DNA of 64,000 nt, taken from the UHGV virus genome UHGV-0382128; one strand, 5' to 3'. Below, piece after piece: positions 7,420-61,582 of this stretch. The position numbers and the translations under genes are program-made. The stretch comes from a virus. The notes beneath the pieces are model-generated. The model saw only the letters and a program-made list of their open reading frames with translations, had not been told where the DNA came from and searched no databases. Numbering within the stretch: the first letter of the stretch is position 1; each line of letters opens with the position of its first letter.

Positions 7420-7476
7420 GCAAAAAAAATAAGTTTACCTACCTCCGTCAAGGAGGTAGGTAGCTTTTATTTTTCT
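7420..7476. terminator. Bidirectional rho-independent terminator
   Basis: A-run 7422-7429, stem tacctacctcc / ggaggtaggta with loop gtcaa (7436-7462), T-run gcttttatttttc; lies between convergent genes. Confidence 0.8.
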
Positions 7477-8043: not shown

Positions 8044-8088
8044 AAAAAAAATAAGGCGGTCATAAGACCGCCCTAGATTTTATTTTCT
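8044..8088. terminator. Rho-independent terminator (hairpin ggcggtc/gaccgcc flanked by A-run and T-run)
   Basis: A8 run 8044-8051, 7-bp GC stem 8055-8072, then ctagattttattttc. Confidence 0.65.
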
Positions 8089-8233: not shown

Positions 8234-8716
8234 TTATTCGTCTTCTTCGTCATCGCCCGCCATCATCGCATCGGCAAACACTTTGCGCATTTTCCCTTCC
8301 AGCTCTTTTGACTTAGGTACACCGTAACCAAAGCCGATAGAAGCTGCCCATTCAGACGCCCCTACTGTTTCCCCAGTTGGACGTGAGAACACCGTAGAGA
8401 ACGACGCGTTACCAATATTCGTGGTAAGGTCCAGTGCGACCAGTTCGTCGTCTGCTTTCGCTTTCTCAACGATAAGTTCTGACGCAACCTTACCGTAGAC
8501 TTCCAGGAAGTTTGCATCGTGTTGGCGAACCGCATCCGCATCCTGTAGCGTCAGACGATAATCGGTGTCGTTCACTTTGATGACCGGAAGTGATTCTTCG
8601 TAGATTTTGATTAACGGGTCTGCGTTAAGTACCGCGCTTTCGTCCAGAGTCATTGCCGGAGTTTCCAGCGCATCGATCATTGCAGCCAGTTCTTTAGTAG
8701 ACATTACTTGTGCCAT
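8234..8716 (-). CDS. Hypothetical protein with acidic C-terminal tail (160 aa)
   Basis: ORF ending ...MMAGDDEEDE; function unknown. Confidence 0.55.
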   Translation of the reverse strand: MAQVMSTKELAAMIDALETPAMTLDESAVLNADPLIKIYEESLPVIKVNDTDYRLTLQDADAVRQHDANFLEVYGKVASELIVEKAKADDELVALDLTTNIGNASFSTVFSRPTGETVGASEWAASIGFGYGVPKSKELEGKMRKVFADAMMAGDDEEDE

Positions 8717-8735: not shown

Positions 8736-9407
8736 TTACTGTTGTTGAAGACGGCTTTCTAAGCCAGTGATGATTTCGTCGGTGAAATACGCTAAGTCGA
8801 GCATTTCAACGTACTCTTGGCGTTCCAAGATTTCTTTCGCAAACAATGCGTTATACCAATCAGGAACACGAGATTTACCATTACGACCGAACTTATTTTG
8901 CACGTGACTGATTGCATGGAATTTTGAATCAGTAACAGATTTTCCATGGTCTCGTGCGTATAAGTAAGAGCGGTGCATGTAATTTTTAACTTCCTCGACG
9001 GTAGGGATGCCGCGATCGGCGGCAGCGACAATTTCAGAAACAATGGAATTATAACCACCTTTGTGGGAACTCCGATGTTCTAATACTGCATACGCTACCT
9101 CGGTCACATCGTCGGAACTAAGTTTAAAACGCCGCTTGAGTATAGGTGCAGAATCAAGCACGTAATTGAATGCCTTGATGTGGTGTGAAGCACGGTCAGC
9201 AGGTGTGGAGAAAATATCGTGCGCAGCCACGGCAACCAGAACATTCTTTAGGTGTTGCGTTTCATTCAACAGGTAAGCGATACGAACAGCGTTCGACTTC
9301 ACAGAAAGAATGTGGTCTAGTCGATGCGCGCTATCGGTATAGCGATAGAAATCGCGGAAGTGGCTAAGTACACGTTCCCAGAATTTATTAATTTCAGTAG
9401 CTTCCAT
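8736..9407 (-). CDS. Putative HD-domain phosphohydrolase (223 aa)
   Basis: His/Asp metal-binding pattern ...LVAVAAHDIFS...SHH...AVLEHR... typical of the HD superfamily; assignment by motif only. Confidence 0.45.
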   Translation of the reverse strand: MEATEINKFWERVLSHFRDFYRYTDSAHRLDHILSVKSNAVRIAYLLNETQHLKNVLVAVAAHDIFSTPADRASHHIKAFNYVLDSAPILKRRFKLSSDDVTEVAYAVLEHRSSHKGGYNSIVSEIVAAADRGIPTVEEVKNYMHRSYLYARDHGKSVTDSKFHAISHVQNKFGRNGKSRVPDWYNALFAKEILERQEYVEMLDLAYFTDEIITGLESRLQQQ

Positions 9408-9428
9408 TGATAATACCTTACAAGTCGA

Positions 9429-9818
9429 TTAAGAGAATGTGAACTGACAGCGTGCCAACAGAATACGATGGTTTTTCCAATCGTCAGGTTCTTGGATAAT
9501 GTTTCGATAAAGGATATGGTCAGCGCTTACTACCCTTGCAAGCTCTTGCACCATATCTGGGAGCGTAGGTGCTTTTAGCCGATGCGCTTCACGCCACTTA
9601 GGAGACGCCATACGGGACAGAAACGCATCTTTAGGTACGATGGTATTGCTTTCCTCTTTTAACGTCTCTAAATGCGCCTCAACGCGTTTTACGTGGAGCT
9701 CAAGTGCTTGTGGGTCTGTTACGAAAGTATAGAATCTGTCATCGCGACGTAAGCTACACAGAATCCATAAGGTAAAGGGGTCACGACAGGCATTGATAAG
9801 TTCTTTTGACCATTCCAT
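9429..9818 (-). CDS. Hypothetical protein (129 aa)
   Basis: ORF tightly packed with neighbours (2-nt spacing to the next gene). Confidence 0.5.
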   Translation of the reverse strand: MEWSKELINACRDPFTLWILCSLRRDDRFYTFVTDPQALELHVKRVEAHLETLKEESNTIVPKDAFLSRMASPKWREAHRLKAPTLPDMVQELARVVSADHILYRNIIQEPDDWKNHRILLARCQFTFS

Positions 9819-9819
9819 C

Positions 9820-10209
9820 TTAGCTACCTACGCTAGAGAGCATCCAATTGCTTTTGATAGCATTAATCTGTTTAACTGATTCCCGAATGCCTTCAAACAT
9901 TTTGATGCGGTCTGGCGTAGTAAGACATTGTTTAAGGTCTTTATCGAGAGAGAACAACATTGCCAGTTTTGCAAGCGAAACACTCAAGATATCAGACAAT
10001 TCGTTGTTTCTACGCCACTCTGGGTTACGGACGATAGTCACTAGAGGACCGATATCTTCATAAGGACATTCTTTGTTCAGTAGTTTGTCACGTTGCTCGC
10101 ACAGATAAGTTTCATCTGTAATTAATCGTTCCAGGTCATCTTGACGCGTGATAGCACGAGTAGAAATCATTAATACAACAAACGGGTCTTTAAATAATTC
10201 GTTTTTCAT
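9820..10209 (-). CDS. Hypothetical protein (129 aa)
   Basis: ORF with SD aaaggag before the ATG. Confidence 0.5.
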   Translation of the reverse strand: MKNELFKDPFVVLMISTRAITRQDDLERLITDETYLCEQRDKLLNKECPYEDIGPLVTIVRNPEWRRNNELSDILSVSLAKLAMLFSLDKDLKQCLTTPDRIKMFEGIRESVKQINAIKSNWMLSSVGS

Positions 10210-10299
10210 TTTTAATACTCCTTTAGGTTAAACAGTCGAATAGCGTGTAATTCTACAACGCTCACCTAAGTAAAATATATCTAAGATAATTTTCAATAG

Positions 10300-10345
10300 G
10301 GTTAAAATATAAGTGGGCTAGTCTATTCGATGAATAGACTAGCCG
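10300..10345 (-). terminator. Long hairpin (12-13-bp stem) followed by an AT-rich tract; probable terminator
   Basis: ggctagtctattc-gat-gaatagactagcc at 10317-10344, directly after the stop of the 10353..10904 gene; adjacent AT-rich 10270-10315. Confidence 0.5.
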
Positions 10346-10352
10346 AAAGGTT

Positions 10353-10904
10353 TTACTGCACGCACAAAATCTGACCTGAGTATTCGAAGGGATTTTCTGC
10401 GAATGTTCTGAGCTGCCGACAAACCGCTTCGACGTCAGGTTCATCCGTCCGCGTATAAATCGCGGTCCCGTTCTTTAACACCCACTCACGGCAATTCCGG
10501 CCATAGTCGTCCACTAACAATCTCCCTTTATCAGCGTAAGTCGCTTTTTCCGCAGAGTTTGTAGTTACGATAACTTTGTGACCAGGCACACCAAAGTGTT
10601 TCTCGAAGAATAATTTTTTACACTCAACAACACGGTCGTGATCGAAATGGTCTTCCGAACCCGACGTTAATATCGCCCAACATTCCCCCAGACTTTCTAC
10701 CGTTTCGAGGATTTTTGCGGCCTCGGGTATAGGGTCCAGTTTATAGAAAAGATCCGGGTCTTTTAAATACATTTCCCGGACTAGTGCACGGCGGTGCAAT
10801 TCCGGCATTCCATGAAATTCTTGTATGGACATTCCTTGAAAGTGGTGAGTCAGCACGTATTTGCGCCAACTTGCGAATACGCCGTCACTATCTAAATTGA
10901 ACAT
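10353..10904 (-). CDS. Putative HAD-superfamily 5'(3')-deoxyribonucleotidase-like hydrolase (183 aa)
   Basis: N-terminal MFNLDSDGVF (HAD motif I DxDG), later LTSGS and LLVDDYG (motif IV-like). Confidence 0.5.
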   Translation of the reverse strand: MFNLDSDGVFASWRKYVLTHHFQGMSIQEFHGMPELHRRALVREMYLKDPDLFYKLDPIPEAAKILETVESLGECWAILTSGSEDHFDHDRVVECKKLFFEKHFGVPGHKVIVTTNSAEKATYADKGRLLVDDYGRNCREWVLKNGTAIYTRTDEPDVEAVCRQLRTFAENPFEYSGQILCVQ

Positions 10905-11320: not shown

Positions 11321-11959
11321 TTATGGAGTTACAGTGTATTCGTTTAACGCAGCGTCAAAAATACCCCGAGAGATTTCTTTTGCATCAGAAATCGTAATCT
11401 GAGGTTCCCGTTCACTACACGTTACAGTAAGTTCGTAGAATGAACCACTTTTTAATAGTTGGTTAGCATTCAAACGAACGTCTTGGTTAAGCGCTACTGC
11501 TAACGTGTGAGTGTATCCGTTATTTGCCAGTCGAACTAAACGCAGTTCACCAATCATACTAGGTTTAATTTCCCAGTTTGATAAGCGGTGAGGAACAATC
11601 CACACTTCATTAGCGCGGTAGGGTTCAGCCGACAGTTCTATCGAGGGTTGGACAACATCACGTTCGTCGAACCCATACAGATAAAAACGTGGCACAGCGG
11701 TTGCGGTTTCCGCAGGTGTAAAGTAACGACGGACACCACGCAGGCAACGTTCTAAATCGACAGAGCAGCAAATACGGGGTACCGTTTTGTCTTCGTCTCT
11801 GTAAACGCTATAAGGAATCCGAGGCGTGAAAACCGAAATCTTTCGATCGCTGATATGTAACGGGGCGCTATCTAACTTTTTCAAAGAAACTTTCTTTGCG
11901 GTGCGTGGCAGTTGTTGCTCTAACCACTTCACCAACGAAGGTTCAATAGTATCAGCCAT
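11321..11959 (-). CDS. Hypothetical protein (212 aa)
   Basis: ORF with SD gagggaag; abuts the next gene. Confidence 0.5.
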   Translation of the reverse strand: MADTIEPSLVKWLEQQLPRTAKKVSLKKLDSAPLHISDRKISVFTPRIPYSVYRDEDKTVPRICCSVDLERCLRGVRRYFTPAETATAVPRFYLYGFDERDVVQPSIELSAEPYRANEVWIVPHRLSNWEIKPSMIGELRLVRLANNGYTHTLAVALNQDVRLNANQLLKSGSFYELTVTCSEREPQITISDAKEISRGIFDAALNEYTVTP

Positions 11960-31087: not shown

Positions 31088-31152
31088 AAAAAGAAAAAAA
31101 ATAAGAAAGTTAACCTACCTCCGAAGGGAGGTAGGTGCTTTTATTTATTTCG
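31088..31152. terminator. Bidirectional rho-independent terminator
   Basis: A-run, stem cctacctcc / ggaggtagg with loop gaag (31114-31135), then tgcttttatttatttc; between convergent genes. Confidence 0.8.
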
Positions 31153-32002
31153 CCAAGTCTGCTTCTTTTACAAAGATGCCGTCGGCGTTCAGGTAACCTT
31201 TACGGTCTTTGATTTCATGCCAGGCTAAAGAGAAGCAATGGCGAATATCCAATTTATAATACAAGGCGATACGAGCAAGATGGGCTAAACCCAGGCTAAC
31301 GAAATCGAAACCATGATCTTTACCTTCCATAAAGGTTGTGGCAAAACTTTCAATAGCGTGAAGGTATTGTTGATGTGGGTATCCAGCGTTGTTTAAATTT
31401 TCTTCAACTTCAGCTACATCTTCCACGTCTAAGCGTAGACCAGACTCGATGCAGTCTTCTGCCACTGTAAGGTAACCAGAATTTGCATCCCCTAATTCGA
31501 TGATGTTTACCAGAACCACCAACGCGTCGCCGATACCATCCATGATCATTTCAGGTTTGTTTTTACTGATGCCCGCCGCAATTTCACCTAACTCTTCAAA
31601 GAACTTCGTGATTTGGGTTTCCAGTTTGCCGTTATCGAGAATCCCACGTTCTTTAGACCAACCTTTAACGAGTTTTACACATTTTGCGATCGTGCAAACT
31701 AGAACAGATTCTGTATGCATTACCGTACCGTTATAAACGGCATCGGTAAGCTTAATAGGCGCTACAATCGTTTCAATATCCAGTTCTTGATTACCGGTGT
31801 GGCGTTTACCTTCTACACGAATACGGTTGGTACCAGGGTTTACACCAATTGTGTAAATAGCATCGAACTGTACTGCATTCTCATTCAGAGCGCGCAGTTG
31901 CGCGTTAACTTCTTCCAGGTGTTGACCAGGATTAACCACGATGTTGTAAATAGTGTTGATGTCAAAACGTTCGCCCATTTTAAACTCCATTAGATTAAAC
32001 AA
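31145..32002 (-). CDS. Putative MazG-like nucleotide pyrophosphohydrolase domain protein (285 aa)
   Basis: ITKFFEELGEIAAGISKNKPEMIMDGIGDALVVLVNIIELGD resembles the MazG/HisE-type EExxE...D helix pair; N-terminal part unknown. Confidence 0.4.
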   Translation of the reverse strand: MFNLMEFKMGERFDINTIYNIVVNPGQHLEEVNAQLRALNENAVQFDAIYTIGVNPGTNRIRVEGKRHTGNQELDIETIVAPIKLTDAVYNGTVMHTESVLVCTIAKCVKLVKGWSKERGILDNGKLETQITKFFEELGEIAAGISKNKPEMIMDGIGDALVVLVNIIELGDANSGYLTVAEDCIESGLRLDVEDVAEVEENLNNAGYPHQQYLHAIESFATTFMEGKDHGFDFVSLGLAHLARIALYYKLDIRHCFSLAWHEIKDRKGYLNADGIFVKEADLAK

Positions 32003-33109: not shown

Positions 33110-33406
33110 TTACTTAAAATCACGTTTGGCCTTGCTAATGATTTGAGATATTCTGCTTGGCGTCACTCCGTGTATTTCGGCCAATTTCTTGTTACTTAGG
33201 CCACCCAATTTACCAACAAGAATATTCAATACACGTAAGTCTTTTAACGTTGCCGAAATCTTCTCTAAGATTTCGATATCAGCTTGATCAAACTTACCTT
33301 TAGTCTGTAATGCTATCCCAGCACGCTCAGTAACAGTTTTTAGCTCAGCTAATCGACTAATGCCGAAAGAAGTTAACTCCACGTACGATTTCTCATTAAT
33401 CATCAT
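33110..33406 (-). CDS. Small helix-turn-helix protein resembling sigma-70 region 4 (98 aa); candidate transcription factor
   Basis: C-terminal LSNKKLAEIHGVTPSRISQIISKAKRDF resembles the region-4 HTH consensus (cf. ...LEEVG..FGVTRERIRQIE.KAL). Confidence 0.4.
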   Translation of the reverse strand: MMINEKSYVELTSFGISRLAELKTVTERAGIALQTKGKFDQADIEILEKISATLKDLRVLNILVGKLGGLSNKKLAEIHGVTPSRISQIISKAKRDFK

Positions 33407-33413
33407 GTACCCC

Positions 33414-34448
33414 TTAGACAGCTATGGGAGCTTTAATTGTGTCGTGTGATTGATACCCAACCAATTCGAAGTCTTCGTATTTGTAATCGAAGATGGAATC
33501 AGGTTTACGTTTGATAACCAGTTTAGGTAGCGGGTAAGGTTCGCGAGTAAGTTGTAGTTTTGCCTGCTCCAGATGGTTAGAATACAGATGAACGTCTACA
33601 CCACTATAAACCAACTCGTCTGGAACCATGTTCAACTGCTGTGCAATCATGTGAGTTAACAACGCGTACGAAGCGACGTTAAATGGCGCGCCGAGTAGGT
33701 AATCGTTGCTCCGCATCATGTAAAAACATGAAAGCTTCCGACGTGGAATGTCCTCACGATCTAAAATTTCATGAAGTCGCTCTTCATCATCAATATCTTC
33801 GTGATTAATAAGCGGTGCGCTCGCAAATTTTTCCGGTTCGTTTACTTCGTACCAATCCAGTCGTTCAAGCAACGTCATTTCCGTTGTGTAGAATTGGAAA
33901 TAGTTGTGGCATGGGTTAAGTGCCATATCGTCCAGGTCACCTACATTCCAGGCACTAACAATAATACGACGGGAGTCAGGGTCTTCACGAAGTTGCTGGA
34001 TAACTTTACTGATCTGGTCATGTGCTTTTTCATAGACCAAATACGTCGTACCGTCTTCCTTCATATTCCCAATATACTTGTAACCCCGCTGCATTAGTTG
34101 TTGTGTACGTCTTACGTCATGACACTCCACAACTTTACAGTCGCGCCATTCACGCCATTGTTTACCATAAACTGGTCCTAAGTTCCCCTCTTCATCACTC
34201 CATTCGTTCCAAATTTTTACCCCGTTCTCTTGCAGGTACTTCACGTTAGTGTCACCATTTAAGAACCACAGCAGTTCATGAATGATACTTTTCAGGTGAA
34301 CCTTTTTCGTAGTAACTAATGGGAAACCTTCTTTTAGGTCGAAACGTAGTTGGCGACCAAATACAGAAAGTGTCCCTACGCCTGTACGGTCTTTCTTGAC
34401 AACACCGTTATCTAGAATGTCTTGCATTAACGCTAAATACTGTTTCAT
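33414..34448 (-). CDS. thyA: Thymidylate synthase (344 aa) with two insertions
   Basis: Near-identical blocks to E. coli ThyA (MKQYL.LMQ..L..G....[53 protein letters not shown]). Two in-frame insertions of roughly 33 and 46 aa. Confidence 0.9.
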
Positions 34449-34762
34449 TTGTTATTCTCCATACGTTTCGTTAAAATGTCTAAATTACGTTGCGCTTGCT
34501 CAGGACTAAAAATAATGTTTTCCTGGCTATACGTTACATGGAAATGTTTTTTGTTAACAATCTCAACCTTAAGGCCACGAACTTCGAATTGCCGTTTAGC
34601 CTCTTCAACCTTTTTTGGTGAGATTCTAAGAAGACCTGGAAATAGTTCGTCTGCAGGAACGTAGTATTTGATTTCCTTAGTTTCGGGAATTAATTCGATC
34701 CTATCTAAACTGACGCTTATGATTTCGTCAATCTTTTTCTTTATATTGTCGTTCACAGTCAT
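34445..34762 (-). CDS. Hypothetical protein (105 aa)
   Basis: ORF overlapping thyA by 4 nt. Confidence 0.45.
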
Positions 34763-35070
34763 CAGATTTTGTCCTTTTCGAGTTCAGTTAAAATTTCAAA
34801 CAGGTCTGCGTTGGACTGCAGTACGATTTCACTGCCTTCTGCTACAACAGTAATTAAAGGCTTCTTACCACGTAGCAAGAACTCCCAACGCATTGTTCTT
34901 ACGTGGCTGTCGAGTAACTGTTTTAATTTGTGGTTAACTTCAACTTCCAATTTGCCCAGTAACTGTGGTGTAATGCTTTCACCTGAGTTTTTGTTATAAA
35001 GTGTACGCACTAAAGAACGTAAAGAATAGCCAATGCACTGCGAAATTGCCCAACCCGAATAGTTTTCCAT
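34762..35070 (-). CDS. Hypothetical protein (102 aa)
   Basis: ORF only. Confidence 0.45.
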   Translation of the reverse strand: MENYSGWAISQCIGYSLRSLVRTLYNKNSGESITPQLLGKLEVEVNHKLKQLLDSHVRTMRWEFLLRGKKPLITVVAEGSEIVLQSNADLFEILTELEKDKI

Positions 35071-35071
35071 G

Positions 35072-35617
35072 TTAATCCTTCAAAATGTCTTTAAGTTTTA
35101 GTTTTGTATAGAACGGAGAACTACTTAGTTCTTCTGTCCAACTTATACGTCCGTTCTGTAGAACCCGGTCGAAGATTAGGCCGTTCATCTTTACAATTCT
35201 GGCCAATTGATAAAAGAGTGTCGCGAGATGTAGACGACGCTCCATTTGTGCGCGAGCGGTACAACTTCGTACCGCTTTGATAGCAAGTACCGCTTCTGGC
35301 ATCAACGTAACCGCGATTGACTCAGGATGTTCGTTTTTCCATTTCTTAATGGCTAGTAGTCGGTGTAGTGATTTTTCAAGGGGACGTAAATCCCCGTTAT
35401 TCATCACGTAAACTAGAGCAGCAATATCCCACAAGGCGTTACCCACCGCTTTAGCAACAAACAACCCGTCGTGTGATGTCGTGGATTCACAGACTTTGCC
35501 AATACTTCCATAAACACGTGCAGTCCATGCGTCTGTCTGTTCGCCGGGTTTTATACCCGCGTTATCCAGAAAGTGTTTAAACGCATTAACGTGATCAGTT
35601 AACTGTATTTGTTTCAT
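35072..35617 (-). CDS. Hypothetical protein (181 aa)
   Basis: ORF only. Confidence 0.45.
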   Translation of the reverse strand: MKQIQLTDHVNAFKHFLDNAGIKPGEQTDAWTARVYGSIGKVCESTTSHDGLFVAKAVGNALWDIAALVYVMNNGDLRPLEKSLHRLLAIKKWKNEHPESIAVTLMPEAVLAIKAVRSCTARAQMERRLHLATLFYQLARIVKMNGLIFDRVLQNGRISWTEELSSSPFYTKLKLKDILKD

Positions 35618-45605: not shown

Positions 45606-45655
45606 AAAAGTAAAGCTACCCCTAGACCACACGGTCTAGGGGTAAACTATTTATT
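45606..45655. terminator. Bidirectional rho-independent terminator
   Basis: Stem cccctagacc / ggtctagggg (45619-45642) flanked by A-run and T-rich tract; between convergent genes. Confidence 0.75.
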
Positions 45656-46550
45656 TCCCACGATAAAATCCAGAGATGTAGCTTGGCGCTATCCATCGCC
45701 ATTCGCGCCAACGCATTTCTGACATTTTACCACACCATACACGCTTCCAATGAGCACGACGGATATGTGCTGCGCAATAAATCGCCAAACAAACCTCGTG
45801 TCCCTCCTTGCGTTGTTGTTCTATATCTTCCCATTGTACCGGACTTACGTCTAAAACGACCGCTTCACTACGTGGGCGAATCTCTGTATCAGGAACATAA
45901 CGAATGGTCCTCCCGCGAAATTCTTTCTTCTCACGTTCAGTTCGTTTAATTCGCGATGAAAGATATAGTCCGATATAGACGGCGTCGAGTAGTCGTTGAT
46001 TCTCCTTAACCGAAGTAAGGAGCGGCTTTAACTCCACGAAATCATCATTACTTTTATCGATCGTGTAAATCTCAAACTCCATGTATACCGACTCGTCATG
46101 TTCTTCGCATGACATCACAAAGAGAACTTCTTCACCTTCGTAAAGACGTCTTCCGATAAATAACGTGATTGGACATTCGTCGAGATTTACGGTAACCGAG
46201 AAAGTAAATGAAGGGATGGTTTCTATCCAGAAGTACGGGATATTTTTTAGTCTCTCAGTTTTTGCTAAGAGCGCCATCAGTTCTTCATCCGAGATGATTT
46301 CAACAGCAGCGTATTGCCATCCTAGTCCCAGGGACTGCTTAATCAGTCTGGGAATCTGTTCGGTAACGCCATATTCACGATAGGTCGGATCTTTAACTGG
46401 CATAAACGTTACGGGTATTTGTCGTTTATGCTCGTTAATGAACCGAATAAAACGGCACTGATCTAATCCGTGAATTGTTTGGTGTGCTTTTTCTATCTGT
46501 TCGCTCATGCGTCTTAGCGCTTTCCCGTAAAGTCTATTATTCGTTGTCAT
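45651..46550 (-). CDS. Paralog family A, member 1 (~299 aa; start revised to ATG at 46550)
   Basis: Track ORF 45651..46646 overlaps the upstream gene; the internal ATG (MTTNNRLYG...) is preceded by SD ggagca. C-terminal AAHIRRAHWKRVWCG...W.EWRWIAPSYISGF is shared with the neighbouring gene. Confidence 0.5.
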   Translation of the reverse strand: MTTNNRLYGKALRRMSEQIEKAHQTIHGLDQCRFIRFINEHKRQIPVTFMPVKDPTYREYGVTEQIPRLIKQSLGLGWQYAAVEIISDEELMALLAKTERLKNIPYFWIETIPSFTFSVTVNLDECPITLFIGRRLYEGEEVLFVMSCEEHDESVYMEFEIYTIDKSNDDFVELKPLLTSVKENQRLLDAVYIGLYLSSRIKRTEREKKEFRGRTIRYVPDTEIRPRSEAVVLDVSPVQWEDIEQQRKEGHEVCLAIYCAAHIRRAHWKRVWCGKMSEMRWREWRWIAPSYISGFYRGK

Positions 46551-46575
46551 TTTAATGCTCCTAAACACTTTTAGC

Positions 46576-47502
46576 TTAATTGTGGGGTACGTAGCCACGG
46601 ACAAATGTAGGTGGAATCCAACAAAGTTTTCTTTTTCTTTCCCCATCTCTTGGACCGACCCAATATCTGCGCCAGTGCGCGCGACGAATATGTGCGGCCT
46701 TGGCGTGTTTGATACCTTCCATGGTTTTCAAGTCGGTGTTAAATCCCTTTAGATATTTCACTTGTTCTGGTGTGATGTCTATTTTAACGTCACGTTCACG
46801 AGGTTTGATTTCGTGACTTATGCTACCATTCTTTTTGATTTCTTTGAACTTAATGTCATTGAAAGACCCTCTGAGATTGGGCGGGATTAGCGTACAGAGA
46901 AATATCAACGATATGGCGGTTTTGGCCAGTGATAACCATAACGTCTTCTCTTGTTCGGTCTGTACGCCAGTTGTATAATCGATTTCAACAAGCCCGTTTC
47001 CAACACTACATATCTCTAACGAGCAGGTGGCGATTGTGGTAACGCCTTCTGTTAACCCGTAATCAGTATTTGTAGCAATTATAATAAACCTTCTATTCCC
47101 ATTTTTTCGATAACCGAGAAAGAAAGTCTCATCTTCTTTACCTACATCGATTGCCACAGTCCAAGTAGGTATAAAGTCCAACCATTCTTCAGGGAATTTA
47201 CTGGGCATCTCAGTCTCGAAAACAAGTTCTCTAAGTGCTCGATCGGATATTAAGGAAGCACCACCGTATAGCCATCCGATCGCCAATGTTTGAGCGTGAA
47301 GGGAACGGGGATCTTTGAGACCTAACTCAGCATCGTAGGGTATAAAGGCATTAGTTAAATGCTTACGATTCTTTTTTATCCATTTCGAGACGGGATTTTC
47401 TTTTGTTTGGTTTTCTTCCATGACATTTTCTAGATGCTGACTCCCCATTTGTCTAAGGCAGTCTTTAATACCTTTTACTTTTTTACTTTTGTACAAATAC
47501 AT
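46576..47502 (-). CDS. Paralog family A, member 2 (308 aa)
   Basis: C-terminal AAHIRRAHWRRYWVG...LCWIPPTFVRGY and an internal block similar to the gene downstream; own SD aggaga after a terminator. Confidence 0.55.
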   Translation of the reverse strand: MYLYKSKKVKGIKDCLRQMGSQHLENVMEENQTKENPVSKWIKKNRKHLTNAFIPYDAELGLKDPRSLHAQTLAIGWLYGGASLISDRALRELVFETEMPSKFPEEWLDFIPTWTVAIDVGKEDETFFLGYRKNGNRRFIIIATNTDYGLTEGVTTIATCSLEICSVGNGLVEIDYTTGVQTEQEKTLWLSLAKTAISLIFLCTLIPPNLRGSFNDIKFKEIKKNGSISHEIKPRERDVKIDITPEQVKYLKGFNTDLKTMEGIKHAKAAHIRRAHWRRYWVGPRDGERKRKLCWIPPTFVRGYVPHN

Positions 47503-59910: not shown

Positions 59911-60471
59911 CTATTTAAAAGAGTTTGGAATTAATGACTCTGCTTCTTGGTACAACTTATCAGGTAAGTATAACGTGTAGCACTGCCTCCTCGGTTCAAG
60001 TTTTTTGTAAAGCCACAAAAAGATTTCTTGTCTTTCCCAGGAATCTAACCACCCATTTGCCATTCCCAGTGGAGGGATAGCAACGCTGGTATTCAGATCC
60101 TCAGCACAGTCTGCTAGTGCGCTAATGCCCGCAGTAACATAAGAAACCTGTGACTTTAAACGCCAATGGGTTTTCGTGGGGAGCAAGATACACTTTTCAT
60201 CAGAGTAAACGTAAACGCTTCCAATCTTAATTTCGTCTTCACGACACCGCTTACGATAATCCTGATAAAGGTTGGGGTAGCGTTCACGGCACGCCAGTGC
60301 AATACCGCGACCCATCGCTCCTACGCAGTTAATGGTAACGACTTTATAGTCTTCGGGTGCATTAAAAAGATCGTTACCAATTTCAGATTCTTTACGTACC
60401 GTTAACATAACGAAACGTCCGGAGTTGGTGTGTAGTATTAAAACGTGTACCGCCGATTGATAGCTCGACAA
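59911..60471 (-). CDS. Putative macro-domain (ADP-ribose binding/processing) protein (186 aa)
   Basis: VVTINCVGAMGRGIALACRERYP (glycine-rich loop as in macro domains) and later VAIPPLGMANGWL; by eye only. Confidence 0.45.
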   Translation of the reverse strand: MSSYQSAVHVLILHTNSGRFVMLTVRKESEIGNDLFNAPEDYKVVTINCVGAMGRGIALACRERYPNLYQDYRKRCREDEIKIGSVYVYSDEKCILLPTKTHWRLKSQVSYVTAGISALADCAEDLNTSVAIPPLGMANGWLDSWERQEIFLWLYKKLEPRRQCYTLYLPDKLYQEAESLIPNSFK

Positions 60472-61132: not shown

Positions 61133-61582
61133 TTAGAATGTTTTGCTAAAATCGACCCACTCACGATCGTGCGAGTAAACCGCCTGATAGCCGCGTCGGA
61201 TGAAATACTCTTTTGCTTCTTTACATTTCGCATACATGCCAGTAACAATCTCACCGAAAACTTCATCAGCTGCAATTGCTTTGAAAATCTCTTTCATTAC
61301 ACCCCGTTGACGATAGTCTGGGAGCACGTATACCGAACGTATCTTAAGTGAACCGTTACGATTCCGATAACTACAGTATCCTACCGCGACATCATCCTGA
61401 TACACCAGAACTATGCAGTTACCTTCGATCAGCTGTCGCGCATTTAACTTCGGCACCGACGTTTTGATTTTCAGTAACGTGGCCTGGTGGTCTAAGTAAC
61501 GGTAGTGTAGTTTGAGTAAATCGGCAGCTTGTCGCTCACCGACTTTAGAAGATGCGTTCAACAAATAAATTTCCATTTGCAA
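61133..61582 (-). CDS. GNAT-family N-acetyltransferase (149 aa)
   Basis: Motif A-like IRSVYVLPDYRQRGVMKEIFKAI. Confidence 0.55.
   Translation of the reverse strand: MQMEIYLLNASSKVGERQAADLLKLHYRYLDHQATLLKIKTSVPKLNARQLIEGNCIVLVYQDDVAVGYCSYRNRNGSLKIRSVYVLPDYRQRGVMKEIFKAIAADEVFGEIVTGMYAKCKEAKEYFIRRGYQAVYSHDREWVDFSKTF

What the first reader, a model, noticed from the sequence alone, without database searches (positions are those of the whole stretch)
8736..10904. Nucleotide-pool remodelling genes dispersed through the window
Together with thyA (33414-34448) and the MazG-like gene (31145-32002), an HD-domain hydrolase (8736-9407) and a HAD-type nucleotidase-like gene (10353-10904) suggest extensive reshaping of dNTP pools. 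Several intervening ORFs are unknown and could complete a pathway, for example for a modified base.
Basis: inference. Interest (0 to 1): 0.4.

Follow-up and report, generated by a model that had tools for sequence, protein, structure and literature searches.

The report
Ordinary jumbo-phage nucleotide metabolism genes
The four genes are real and correctly identified nucleotide-handling enzymes of a large Salmonella/E. coli phage related to SPN3US, but they look like the usual supply-and-clean-up kit for normal DNA, not a pathway for an unusual DNA base.

Summary
All four ORFs exist at the stated coordinates and all four family assignments pass profile or structure checks. These are ThyA (33414-34448), a MazG-type NTP pyrophosphohydrolase (31145-31978; true start is probably the ATG at M9), an NT5C-type HAD 5'(3')-deoxyribonucleotidase (10353-10904) and a YpgQ/YedJ-type HD phosphohydrolase (8736-9407). 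The window is a SPN3US-like jumbo phage, gene-for-gene syntenic with SPN3US gp241-259, and some GenBank records of relatives already carry the same annotations. The modified-base idea is not supported. ThyA is a canonical dUMP methylase, 67% identical to E. coli ThyA over its core, with the catalytic Cys, the dUMP-specifying Asn and the C-terminal tail intact. No PurZ, hydroxymethylase, kinase or transferase was recognised in the window. The two unknown ORFs between HD and NT5C are missing in more distant relatives, where the two enzymes are directly adjacent. The modest new points are a conserved NT5C-HD gene pair and two clade-specific insertions in ThyA. Most likely function: dTMP synthesis plus dNTP/dNMP hydrolases that supply dUMP and trim or sanitise pools. 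Substrates are inferred, not shown. Low interest; new member of a known kind.

The parts
8736..9407 (-). HD-domain metal-dependent phosphohydrolase of the YpgQ/YedJ/2pq7 type (orthologue of SPN3US gp251)
   Evidence: Invariant H28, H63-D64 and D131, plus H75 and E110-H111, in 25 family members. PF01966 in 12/25 members. Family profile vs PDB: 2pq7 9e-7, YedJ 0.023. AF2 pLDDT 92.3. Foldseek top hits 2pq7, 2pjq, 2qgs, YpgQ 5dqv. NCBIfam YedJ-family model 4.8e-5, far below its cut-off. 67.7-70% identical to proteins annotated 'putative HD domain protein' in SPN3US and SPAsTU.
9429..10209 (-). Two 129-aa ORFs of unknown function (9429-9818 and 9820-10209; SPN3US gp250 and gp249 equivalents) lying between HD and NT5C. 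Listed only because they sit inside the finding; they are judged NOT to be functional partners.
   Evidence: No Pfam or NCBIfam hit; PHROGs of unknown function only. Absent in Derbicus and ChrisDB, where NT5C and HD are adjacent. SPN3US gp250 is listed as a non-virion protein (PMC7411985).
10353..10904 (-). HAD-superfamily phosphatase of the NT5C type, a 5'(3')-deoxyribonucleotidase-like enzyme (orthologue of SPN3US gp248)
10316..10344 (-). 13-bp-stem terminator-like hairpin 9 nt after the NT5C stop codon
   Evidence: Consensus scan only; the T-tract is weak and function is untested.
31145..31978 (-). MazG-type all-alpha NTP pyrophosphohydrolase core (about aa 100-277) with a clade-specific N-terminal extension of about 100 aa of unknown function
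   Evidence: phrog_7855 3.7e-68, phrog_1992 8.5e-38, phrog_715 8.9e-27. Pfam MazG 8.7e-4, 20 bits against a 22-bit cut-off. The acidic residues of the EExGE...DGIGD motif (second E, last E, both D) and the C-terminal I-x-x-R-x-G of EIKDRKG are invariant down to 26% identity. The core profile's top seven PDB hits are all MazG-like (5ie9 0.0012, 1vmg, 2gta, 3crc/3cra, 2yxh, 2q73). The core occurs in 513 phage records, the full length in only 51.
33414..34448 (-). Thymidylate synthase ThyA with two in-frame insertions (aa 103-142 and aa 190-237)
   Evidence: Pfam 4.2e-110. NCBIfam equivalog cut-offs passed. E. coli TS is the top PDB hit at 7.3e-110, with 67.2% identity over 256 aligned core residues. 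Catalytic PCH Cys, RR pair, PFN Asn and the KAPIAV C-terminus are present. Both insertions are shared with SPN3US-group SaP7.

Best explanation
These are four ordinary accessory nucleotide-metabolism genes of a SPN3US-like (phiKZ-related, probably nucleus-forming) jumbo phage with canonical DNA. They are organised as two small, separately conserved modules rather than one pathway.

Module 1 lies in a co-directional non-structural block. ThyA methylates dUMP to dTMP. The MazG-type enzyme, 1.4 kb downstream, cleaves (d)NTPs to (d)NMP + PPi. It is most plausibly a house-cleaning/dUTPase-dCTPase-like activity that keeps unwanted dNTPs out of DNA and feeds dUMP to ThyA. DHFR and thymidylate kinase, which are encoded elsewhere in relatives, complete the dTTP route.

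Module 2 lies between the prohead protease and the tail tube genes. It is a conserved NT5C-HD gene pair. The HD enzyme (closest characterised relative: YpgQ, a Mn-dependent (d)NTP pyrophosphohydrolase) would convert (d)NTP to (d)NMP, and the NT5C-type HAD phosphatase would convert dNMP to deoxynucleoside + Pi. Together they would form a catabolic or sanitising arm that trims pools or removes aberrant nucleotides.

Shown here: gene presence, family and fold membership, conservation of catalytic residues, synteny. Inferred: all substrates, the coupling of HD to NT5C, and the absence of base modification.
For: - Phage identity and synteny.
- ThyA is canonical.
- MazG core and motif.
- NT5C.
- HD. 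The invariant H28/H63/D64/D131 match the YpgQ Mn ligands H29/H58/D59/D124 (PMC8177086).
- The NT5C-HD pair is on the same strand, in the same order, 107-1038 bp apart in every record listed in both tblastn tables. It is directly adjacent in Derbicus and ChrisDB.
- The ThyA...MazG linkage is also present in SaP7.
- DHFR, TS and Tmk are reported in all SPFM/SPN3US-group genomes (PMC6614189).
- The relative Asesino forms a phage nucleus, leaves host DNA largely undegraded and keeps thymidylate kinase in the cytoplasm, which is consistent with reliance on de novo dNTP supply (PMC11724907).
- A cyanophage MazG hydrolyses dGTP/dCTP and not (p)ppGpp (PMC6850273).
Against: - No enzyme assay, expression or localisation data for any of the four proteins were available; the SPN3US infection proteomics paper (PMC6384053) is not held.
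- The Pfam scores of the window's own MazG, NT5C and HD sequences are below the gathering cut-offs, so these are divergent members whose substrates could differ from the textbook ones.
- The HD family also conserves H75 and H111. This could fit the extended H...HD...H...H...D motif that is diagnostic of a dinuclear site (PMC8177086), so its chemistry may not be YpgQ-like.
- A dTMP synthase together with a dTMP/dUMP-preferring nucleotidase would form a futile cycle unless they are separated in time, place or specificity.
- Only 64 kb of a genome of about 222 kb was examined.
Confidence: 0.7

Rival explanations
1. One reading: the enzymes, together with unknown neighbours, build a modified base. 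Candidates are a 5-substituted pyrimidine made through a ThyA-like hydroxymethylase, or 2-aminoadenine made by a DatZ (HD) / MazZ (MazG) / PurZ system.
For: An HD hydrolase plus a MazG-type hydrolase is the accessory pair of the Z-genome cluster (PMC8342488, PMC12884076). MazG-like triphosphatases in jumbo phages have been proposed to remove unmodified NTPs (PMC7824862). Many neighbouring ORFs have no known function.
Against: - ThyA keeps the dUMP-specifying Asn, the catalytic Cys and the C-terminal tail. It is 67% identical to E. coli ThyA and passes the equivalog cut-offs.
- No PurA/PurZ-like or other modification enzyme was recognised in the window.
- HD and MazG are about 22 kb apart, whereas datZ-mazZ-purZ are contiguous (PMC8342488).
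- The 50 best Foldseek PDB matches listed for the HD model are led by YpgQ/YedJ-type proteins and include no entry described as DatZ.
- The ORFs between HD and NT5C are not conserved.
- The ORF upstream of thyA is unrelated to MazG.
- The text of the survey of PurZ across ~54,000 viral genomes does not mention Erwinia or jumbo phages, and mentions Salmonella only in its reference list (weak evidence).
Confidence: 0.05
2. Counter-defence: one or more of the hydrolases (HD, NT5C, MazG) destroy host immune nucleotides. These could be chain-terminating analogues such as viperin products, cyclic-nucleotide signals or alarmones, rather than normal dNTPs. The NT5C-HD pair would then act as a two-step detoxifier (NTP analogue to NMP to nucleoside).
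For: The HD superfamily includes (p)ppGpp hydrolases and cyclic-nucleotide phosphodiesterases (PMC8177086). All three hydrolases are too divergent to reach the Pfam cut-offs, so specialised substrates are possible. The pair is conserved as a unit across genera. A Macro-domain protein and a GNAT lie in the same window, which suggests other host-interference functions nearby.
Against: The nearest structural and sequence relatives are housekeeping enzymes: YpgQ/YedJ, human cdN and a staphylococcal deoxyribonucleotidase. The one phage MazG tested in the literature found here does not cleave (p)ppGpp (PMC6850273). Nucleus-forming phages already shield their DNA. There is no direct evidence of any kind.
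Confidence: 0.12
3. Host shut-off or nucleotide disposal: HD and NT5C deplete host dNTP/dNMP pools or dispose of breakdown products. From memory, phage T5 deoxynucleoside 5'-monophosphatase does this with dNMPs released from degraded host DNA.
For: NT5C-type enzymes dephosphorylate dNMPs, and phrog_2643 is filed under 'moron, auxiliary metabolic gene and host takeover'. HD followed by NT5C gives a complete route from dNTP to exportable nucleoside.
Against: The close relative Asesino does not noticeably degrade host DNA (PMC11724907). The pair sits in a block with the prohead protease and next to tail genes, not among obvious early genes. Draining dNTPs would also starve the phage's own replication of a genome of about 222 kb.
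Confidence: 0.08

Closest known systems
SPN3US gp251 / gp248 and their orthologues in Seoulvirus, Machinavirus, Derbicusvirus and related Erwinia/Salmonella jumbo phages
   Same: 61-70% amino-acid identity, same gene order (protease - 2 ORFs - NT5C - [0-2 ORFs] - HD - 2-3 ORFs - tail tube - sheath) and same strand. Some records already annotate them as 'putative HD domain protein' and 'NT5C'.
   Different: There is no nucleotide-level (megablast) match to any of 50,697 phage records, so this is a distinct species-level lineage. None of the orthologues has been characterised biochemically in the literature I could reach.
Bacillus subtilis YpgQ (PDB 5dqv) and E. coli YedJ (3gw7), 2pq7, 2pjq, SE1688: small stand-alone HD phosphohydrolases
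   Same: Same fold (Foldseek probability 1.00, TM up to 0.62 on target length), profile similarity and the same H...HD...D ligand spacing as the YpgQ Mn site (PMC8177086).
   Different: Only 15-21% identity. The match covers mainly the N-terminal 130 residues in sequence searches. The phage family conserves extra His residues (H75, H111, H164) and has its own C-terminal helices. Activity is unknown.
Human cytosolic 5'(3')-deoxyribonucleotidase cdN (6g2n, 4yih) and the staphylococcal deoxyribonucleotidase-like protein 3bwv (Pfam NT5C, PF06941)
   Different: 17-23% identity. The window sequence is just under the Pfam cut-off. Base and sugar specificity are unknown.
Phage MazG-like pyrophosphatases (phrog_715/1992/7855), bacterial YpjD/MazG, and the cyanophage MazG
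   Same: Conserved EExGE...DxxGD acidic motif and C-terminal EIKDRKG motif. The best PDB hits are MazG-type structures.
   Different: It carries an N-terminal extension of about 100 aa found only in the SPN3US/Erwinia jumbo-phage group. It has Asp where many MazG proteins have Glu in the second acidic pair. Substrates are untested.
E. coli thymidylate synthase ThyA
   Same: 67% identity over the 256-residue core, with all catalytic and substrate-binding signatures.
   Different: It has two in-frame insertions of 40 and 48 residues (net about +34 and +46) that are shared with SPN3US-group ThyA. The gene's GC content is 43%.
Z-genome cluster datZ-mazZ-purZ of cyanophage S-2L and relatives
   Same: It contains an HD-domain dNTP hydrolase and a MazG-fold NTP diphosphohydrolase (PMC8342488).
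   Different: There is no PurZ here, the genes are not contiguous, and the HD protein resembles YpgQ/YedJ rather than DatZ. This is not a member of that system.

Membership tests
Thymidylate synthase ThyA (PF00303 / TIGR03284) | Full-length profile match above the curated cut-off | tested here: met
   Pfam 367.5 bits (cut-off 24.3), profile positions 1-266 of 266. NCBIfam NF002499 414.2 > 405, NF002497 398.1 > 327, TIGR03284 341 > 108.
Thymidylate synthase ThyA (PF00303 / TIGR03284) | Catalytic Cys in the P-C-H motif, the Arg-Arg pair, and an Asn (not Asp) in the P-F-N motif that selects dUMP over dCMP (role of the Asn is from established knowledge of TS vs dCMP hydroxymethylase) | tested here: met
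   Residue-by-residue alignment to E. coli TS: [22 protein letters not shown] and the C-terminal KAPIAV are all present.
Thymidylate synthase ThyA (PF00303 / TIGR03284) | dUMP to dTMP activity with methylene-tetrahydrofolate | not testable with these tools
   Needs an enzyme assay or complementation of a thyA mutant.
MazG-type all-alpha NTP pyrophosphohydrolase | Significant profile similarity to the MazG domain | tested here: met
   phrog_7855 3.7e-68, phrog_715 8.9e-27. The core-only profile gives MazG-like structures as the top seven PDB hits, best E=0.0012. Caveat: Pfam MazG gives 20 bits for this sequence, under the 22-bit cut-off.
MazG-type all-alpha NTP pyrophosphohydrolase | Two acidic pairs (E-x-x-E ... 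E/D-x-x-D) that bind Mg2+ | tested here: met
   E136-E137-x-G-E140 and D155-G-I-G-D159 are invariant in the clade. The second Glu, the last Glu and both Asp are invariant across seven homologues down to 26% identity, and they align with the motif in 5ie9, 1vmg and 2gta.
MazG-type all-alpha NTP pyrophosphohydrolase | (d)NTP to (d)NMP + PPi activity and substrate preference | not testable with these tools
HAD superfamily, NT5C 5'(3')-deoxyribonucleotidase family (PF06941) | HAD motifs I (DxDx[TV]), II (S/T), III (K) and IV (DD) | tested here: met
   D5-S-D7-G-V, T80/S81, K120 and D132-D133 are invariant in 11 sequences.
HAD superfamily, NT5C 5'(3')-deoxyribonucleotidase family (PF06941) | Profile and fold closest to NT5C members rather than to other HAD families | tested here: met
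HAD superfamily, NT5C 5'(3')-deoxyribonucleotidase family (PF06941) | Specificity for 2'-deoxyribonucleoside monophosphates | not testable with these tools
   Needs an enzyme assay.
HD-domain phosphohydrolases, YpgQ/YedJ-like subgroup | H...HD...D metal-binding motif | tested here: met
   H28, H63-D64 and D131 are invariant in 25 sequences. They align to the motif of 2pq7, YedJ and SE1688. Their spacing matches YpgQ H29/H58/D59/D124 (PMC8177086).
HD-domain phosphohydrolases, YpgQ/YedJ-like subgroup | Sequence-profile and fold similarity to the subgroup | tested here: met
   2pq7 9e-7, YedJ 0.023, SE1688 0.32. Eight of the nine best Foldseek hits are chains of 2pq7, 2pjq, 2qgs and 5dqv (rank 9 is yeast Ddi2) and YedJ 3gw7 is rank 26; E-values are modest at 3e-3 to 0.39. 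The NCBIfam YedJ-family model gives 4.8e-5 but only 23 bits against a 286-bit equivalog cut-off, so this is not an equivalog.
HD-domain phosphohydrolases, YpgQ/YedJ-like subgroup | Mn-dependent (d)NTP pyrophosphohydrolase activity | not testable with these tools
   Needs an assay. The extra conserved His residues leave mononuclear versus dinuclear chemistry open.
Z-genome (2-aminoadenine) system datZ-mazZ-purZ | PurZ, a PurA (PF00709) paralogue | tested here: not met
   No adenylosuccinate-synthetase-like hit was found among the ORFs scanned with PHROGs and/or Pfam. Only this 64-kb window was tested.
Z-genome (2-aminoadenine) system datZ-mazZ-purZ | Contiguous cluster of the HD (DatZ) and MazG-fold (MazZ) genes with purZ | tested here: not met
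   HD and MazG are about 22 kb apart, separated by vRNAP and virion genes.
Pyrimidine hypermodification pathways (hydroxymethylase-based) | A ThyA-family hydroxymethylase instead of, or beside, a methylase, plus downstream kinase/transferase genes | tested here: not met
   The only ThyA homologue is equivalog-level ThyA. No kinase or transferase was recognised in the window. A dUMP hydroxymethylase cannot be excluded from sequence alone with certainty.

The most novel reading that the evidence does not exclude
The conserved NT5C-HD gene pair is a dedicated two-step 'drain' (nucleoside triphosphate to monophosphate to nucleoside). It would be specialised for a non-canonical or host-defence-derived nucleotide, such as chain-terminating analogues or damaged dNTPs, and would protect replication of a very large genome inside the phage nucleus. 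It would then be a new kind of phage counter-defence or sanitation module rather than general pool housekeeping.
Probability: 0.12. Interest if true: 0.55.

Novelty: new member of a known kind. Interest (0 to 1): 0.15.

Why it matters
As it stands this is routine. It confirms that a widespread but unisolated SPN3US-like jumbo phage carries the nucleotide-metabolism genes typical of its clade, and it removes a speculative modified-base lead.

Three small points may be useful to specialists:
- NT5C and HD form a conserved adjacent pair across several jumbo-phage genera. That gives a concrete, testable hypothesis for two proteins that are annotated as 'hypothetical' in most records listed here (NT5C) or only generically as an HD-domain protein.
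- The clade's ThyA is a host-like enzyme carrying two conserved insertions of unknown role.
- The ORFs between the enzymes can be discounted as pathway members.

Tried and rejected
1. Nucleotide-level identification: megablast of two 4-5.5 kb pieces against 50,697 phage records found nothing. Identification had to go through proteins.
2. A second, degenerate MazG upstream of thyA (35072-35617). This was suggested because that ORF and the MazG core both touch phrog_10269. It is rejected: BLASTP shows no similarity, hhalign probability is 0.05, the acidic motif is absent, and there are only two real relatives among 1.84 billion representatives.
3. Z-genome and hypermodification systems: their defining genes are absent from the window (see the membership tests).
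4. Paralogy of the two 129-aa ORFs: BLASTP E=0.056 only. Left open and unimportant.
5. PDB sequence searches with the NT5C protein and its family profile gave only chance-level hits. The assignment needed Pfam at family level plus structure comparison.
6. The full-length MazG profile against the PDB returned only weak Rab11 hits to the N-terminal extension (E about 0.003; the aligned region does not include the P-loop). I judged these spurious. The core-only profile solved the problem.
7. Conserved flanking unknowns (11321-11959 and 8234-8716): no informative PDB, Pfam or NCBIfam match.
8. Expression and essentiality data: the SPN3US infection proteomics paper (PMC6384053) is not held. The SPN3US essential-gene paper does not mention gp248, gp251 or thymidylate. 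The Chimalliviridae core-genome paper mentions only thymidylate kinase.
9. The sigma-70 promoter scan around the pair found fewer sites than shuffled sequence does. This is uninformative for a phage that uses its own RNA polymerases.
Full report
**What the window is.** The 64-kb window has no nucleotide-level match in 50,697 phage records. Its proteins are 60-70% identical to those of Salmonella phage SPN3US and its relatives SPAsTU and Erwinia phages Asesino and phiEaH2. Gene order across 4.4-19.5 kb matches SPN3US gp241-gp259 one for one, in reverse orientation: virion RNA polymerase beta, prohead protease gp245, gp246, gp247, gp248, gp249, gp250, gp251, gp252-254, tail tube and sheath. The window is therefore part of a phiKZ-related jumbo phage. 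The close relative Asesino has been shown experimentally to form a phage nucleus (PMC11724907). Identical or near-identical copies of the genes studied lie on contigs of 221-226 kb, which is probably the whole genome.

**Check of the observation.** ORFs of the stated lengths lie at exactly the stated coordinates, all on the minus strand. The only correction concerns 31145-32002, which is the maximal ORF from a TTG. All relatives begin at the ATG encoding M9, so the gene probably starts at 31978.

**ThyA (33414-34448).**
- It matches Pfam Thymidylat_synt end to end at 4.2e-110.
- It exceeds the NCBIfam equivalog cut-offs.
- Its best PDB relatives are E. coli thymidylate synthases at about 1e-109.
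- Over the 256 aligned core residues it is 67.2% identical to the E. coli enzyme.
- The alignment shows the catalytic Cys in NPCH, the DSRR arginine pair, and the Asn of PFN. From established knowledge of the family, that Asn distinguishes dUMP-using synthases from dCMP hydroxymethylases, which have Asp. The C-terminal KAPIAV tail is also present.
- Two in-frame insertions (residues 103-142 and 190-237) interrupt the core. Both occur at the same positions in the SPN3US-group enzyme of phage SaP7.

Nothing suggests a hydroxymethylase.

**MazG (31145-31978).**
- The window protein scores just below the Pfam MazG cut-off: 20 bits against 22, E=8.7e-4.
- It matches three PHROGs labelled MazG at 3.7e-68, 8.5e-38 and 8.9e-27.
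- In an alignment that includes homologues down to 26% identity, the acidic residues of the EExGE...DxxGD motif and much of the C-terminal EIKDRKG motif are invariant.
- A full-length profile found only weak, probably spurious Rab11 hits to the N-terminal part.
- A core-only profile placed seven MazG-type structures at the top of the PDB list, with the metal-binding motif aligned: 5ie9, 1vmg, YpjD 2gta, E. coli MazG 3crc/3cra, 2yxh and 2q73.
- The core is common in phages (513 records). The N-terminal extension of about 100 residues occurs only in the SPN3US/Erwinia jumbo group, where 51 records match the full length.

**NT5C-type HAD phosphatase (10353-10904).**
- The sequence is just below the Pfam NT5C cut-off, at 22.7 bits against 24.8.
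- All 11 family members hit NT5C, with a best E-value of 1.1e-7, and six carry a precomputed PF06941 assignment.
- phrog_2643, labelled '5'-3' deoxyribonucleotidase', matches at 1.5e-17.
- The four HAD motifs are invariant: D5-x-D7-G-V, T80/S81, K120 and D132-D133.
- The AlphaFold model is confident (pLDDT 94).
- SPN3US annotates the orthologue gp248 only as hypothetical. One SPFM record already calls it NT5C.

**HD hydrolase (8736-9407).**
- The window sequence has no Pfam hit, but 12 of 25 family members hit PF01966.
- The family profile hits the HD hydrolase 2pq7 at 9e-7, E. coli YedJ at 0.023 and SE1688 at 0.32.
- H28, H63-D64 and D131 are invariant. Their spacing matches the Mn ligands H29, H58, D59 and D124 of B. 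subtilis YpgQ. YpgQ is the only biochemically characterised member of this subgroup and is a (d)NTP pyrophosphohydrolase that prefers dGTP and dATP (PMC8177086).
- The model is confident (pLDDT 92). Its best Foldseek matches are 2pq7, 2pjq, SE1688 and YpgQ 5dqv, though with modest E-values.
- The family also conserves H75, H111 and H164. H75 and H111 could correspond to the extra histidines of the extended motif that marks dinuclear sites (PMC8177086), so the metal stoichiometry and the exact chemistry remain open.

**Arrangement.** The genes form two groups about 21 kb apart, separated by virion RNA polymerase, tail fibre and other virion genes.

*NT5C and HD.*
- In the window they are 945 bp apart, with two 129-aa ORFs between them.
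- In every record that appears in both tblastn tables they lie on the same strand, in the same order, 107 to 1038 bp apart. This covers SPN3US-group Salmonella, Escherichia and Enterobacteria phages, SPAsTU, Asesino, Stratton, Huxley, Machina, ChrisDB, Kwan, pEa_SNUABM_4 and Derbicus.
- The annotated records of Derbicus and ChrisDB show them directly adjacent, with the same flanking genes as here.
- The pair is therefore conserved down to about 40% identity, and the two intervening ORFs are insertions specific to the SPN3US-like branch. They have no recognisable domains, and SPN3US gp250 is listed as a non-virion protein (PMC7411985).
- The pairing is not universal. HD homologues occur in 135 phage records and NT5C homologues in 72. 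A Vibrio jumbo phage has NT5C at the same site with no annotated HD gene next to it.

*ThyA and MazG.*
- They lie in one co-directional block 1.4 kb apart. The same linkage, with different small ORFs in between, is seen in SaP7.

**Search for pathway partners.** About 60 ORFs of the window were scanned with PHROGs and/or Pfam. The hits were:
- structural proteins and RNA polymerase subunits;
- UvsX, an RNase H-like ribonuclease and an exonuclease;
- a transglycosylase, a Macro-domain protein and a GNAT.

No PurZ/PurA homologue, DHFR, dCMP deaminase, nucleotide kinase, glycosyltransferase or other known base-modification enzyme was found. One lead was followed and rejected: the ORF upstream of thyA (35072-35617) shares a PHROG with the MazG core, but it is unrelated by BLASTP and by profile-profile comparison and lacks the acidic motif.

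**Interpretation.** The best-supported reading is that these are the usual accessory nucleotide genes of this phage clade.
- ThyA makes dTMP. In relatives, DHFR and thymidylate kinase are encoded elsewhere in the genome (PMC6614189). Thymidylate kinase is a core, cytoplasmic protein of nucleus-forming phages (PMC10299810, PMC11724907).
- Asesino leaves host DNA largely intact (PMC11724907), so such phages plausibly depend on de novo synthesis rather than salvage.
- The MazG-type enzyme probably hydrolyses particular (d)NTPs to (d)NMPs. A cyanophage MazG prefers dGTP and dCTP and does not touch (p)ppGpp (PMC6850273). Supplying dUMP and excluding dUTP is an attractive role next to ThyA, but that is inference.
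- The NT5C-HD pair could act in series (dNTP to dNMP to deoxynucleoside) to trim or sanitise pools. This too is inference, based on the activities of YpgQ and cdN-type enzymes.

**Rivals.**
- A modified-base pathway is unlikely (about 0.05), for the reasons above. The Z-genome system in particular fails on its defining gene PurZ and on clustering (PMC8342488, PMC12884076).
- A counter-defence role against immune or toxic nucleotides (about 0.12) and a host-pool depletion role (about 0.08) cannot be excluded. All three hydrolases are divergent and untested.

**Limits.** Only 64 kb of a genome of about 222 kb was available. No expression, localisation or enzymatic data could be retrieved; the SPN3US infection proteomics paper is not held. 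Base composition of the DNA cannot be judged from sequence.

**Verdict.** This is a new member of a known kind, of low interest. Two minor follow-ups are the conserved NT5C-HD pair and the ThyA insertions.

Noticed in passing
whole window; related contigs L006-L011: This phage lineage is absent from the INPHARED phage collection at nucleotide level, yet it occurs as contigs of about 221-226 kb in many public assemblies. Some are labelled Salmonella enterica (many serovars), E. coli or Shigella isolates; others are ENA metagenome assemblies. Single protein variants are seen on up to 62 contigs. It could be a carrier-state or pseudolysogenic jumbo phage travelling with cultured isolates, or a common gut phage.
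   Followed up: partly
window 33414-34448 (ThyA residues 103-142 and 190-237): ThyA is a host-like enzyme (67% identical to E. coli ThyA in the core) carrying two in-frame insertions of 40 and 48 residues. The SPN3US group has both insertions at the same sites. Their role is unknown. The SPFM study reported positively selected ThyA sites at positions 89 and 92, close to the first insertion (PMC6614189).
   Followed up: partly
window 34445-35617: Three small ORFs upstream of thyA (35072-35617, 34762-35070 and 34445-34762) form a chain with overlapping stop and start codons that runs into thyA. The first two match different halves of one 299-position family, phrog_10269, so they are a split or two-gene version of a protein that is single elsewhere. 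The 181-aa ORF has only two real relatives among 1.84 billion representative proteins.
   Followed up: partly
window 59911-60471 and 61133-61582: A Macro-domain protein (Pfam 3.1e-6; PHROG label 'phosphatase') and a GNAT acetyltransferase (7.8e-8) lie close together. They may be ADP-ribose- or acetylation-related host-interference genes.
   Followed up: no
window 31703-31978 (MazG residues 9-100): The MazG enzyme carries an N-terminal extension of about 100 residues that is restricted to the SPN3US/Erwinia jumbo-phage group. Its only PDB similarity is a weak, probably spurious match to part of Rab11 (E about 0.003).
   Followed up: partly
window 9429-9818 and 9820-10209: The two ORFs inserted between HD and NT5C are both exactly 129 aa and share faint similarity: 24% identity, E=0.056, with a common DPF...P(K/E)WR pattern. 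They may be an old tandem duplication. The second has a lower GC content (0.395) than its neighbours.
   Followed up: partly
window 10316-10344 (-), 7435-7463 (both strands), 8052-8075 (-): There are strong terminator-like hairpins right after the NT5C stop codon, between the convergent tail-tube gene and the 198-aa ORF (bidirectional), and just upstream of the 198-aa ORF.
   Followed up: no
window 33110-33406: A 98-aa ORF immediately downstream of thyA has weak helix-turn-helix hits that are all below the Pfam cut-offs (HTH_3 8.8e-4, Sigma70_r4 4.8e-3). It may be a small DNA-binding regulator. No PHROG match.
   Followed up: no
window 45651-46646 and 46576-47502: Two adjacent ORFs that overlap by 71 bp both match phrog_6160 over their C-terminal two-thirds, so they are tandem paralogues of unknown function.
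   Followed up: no
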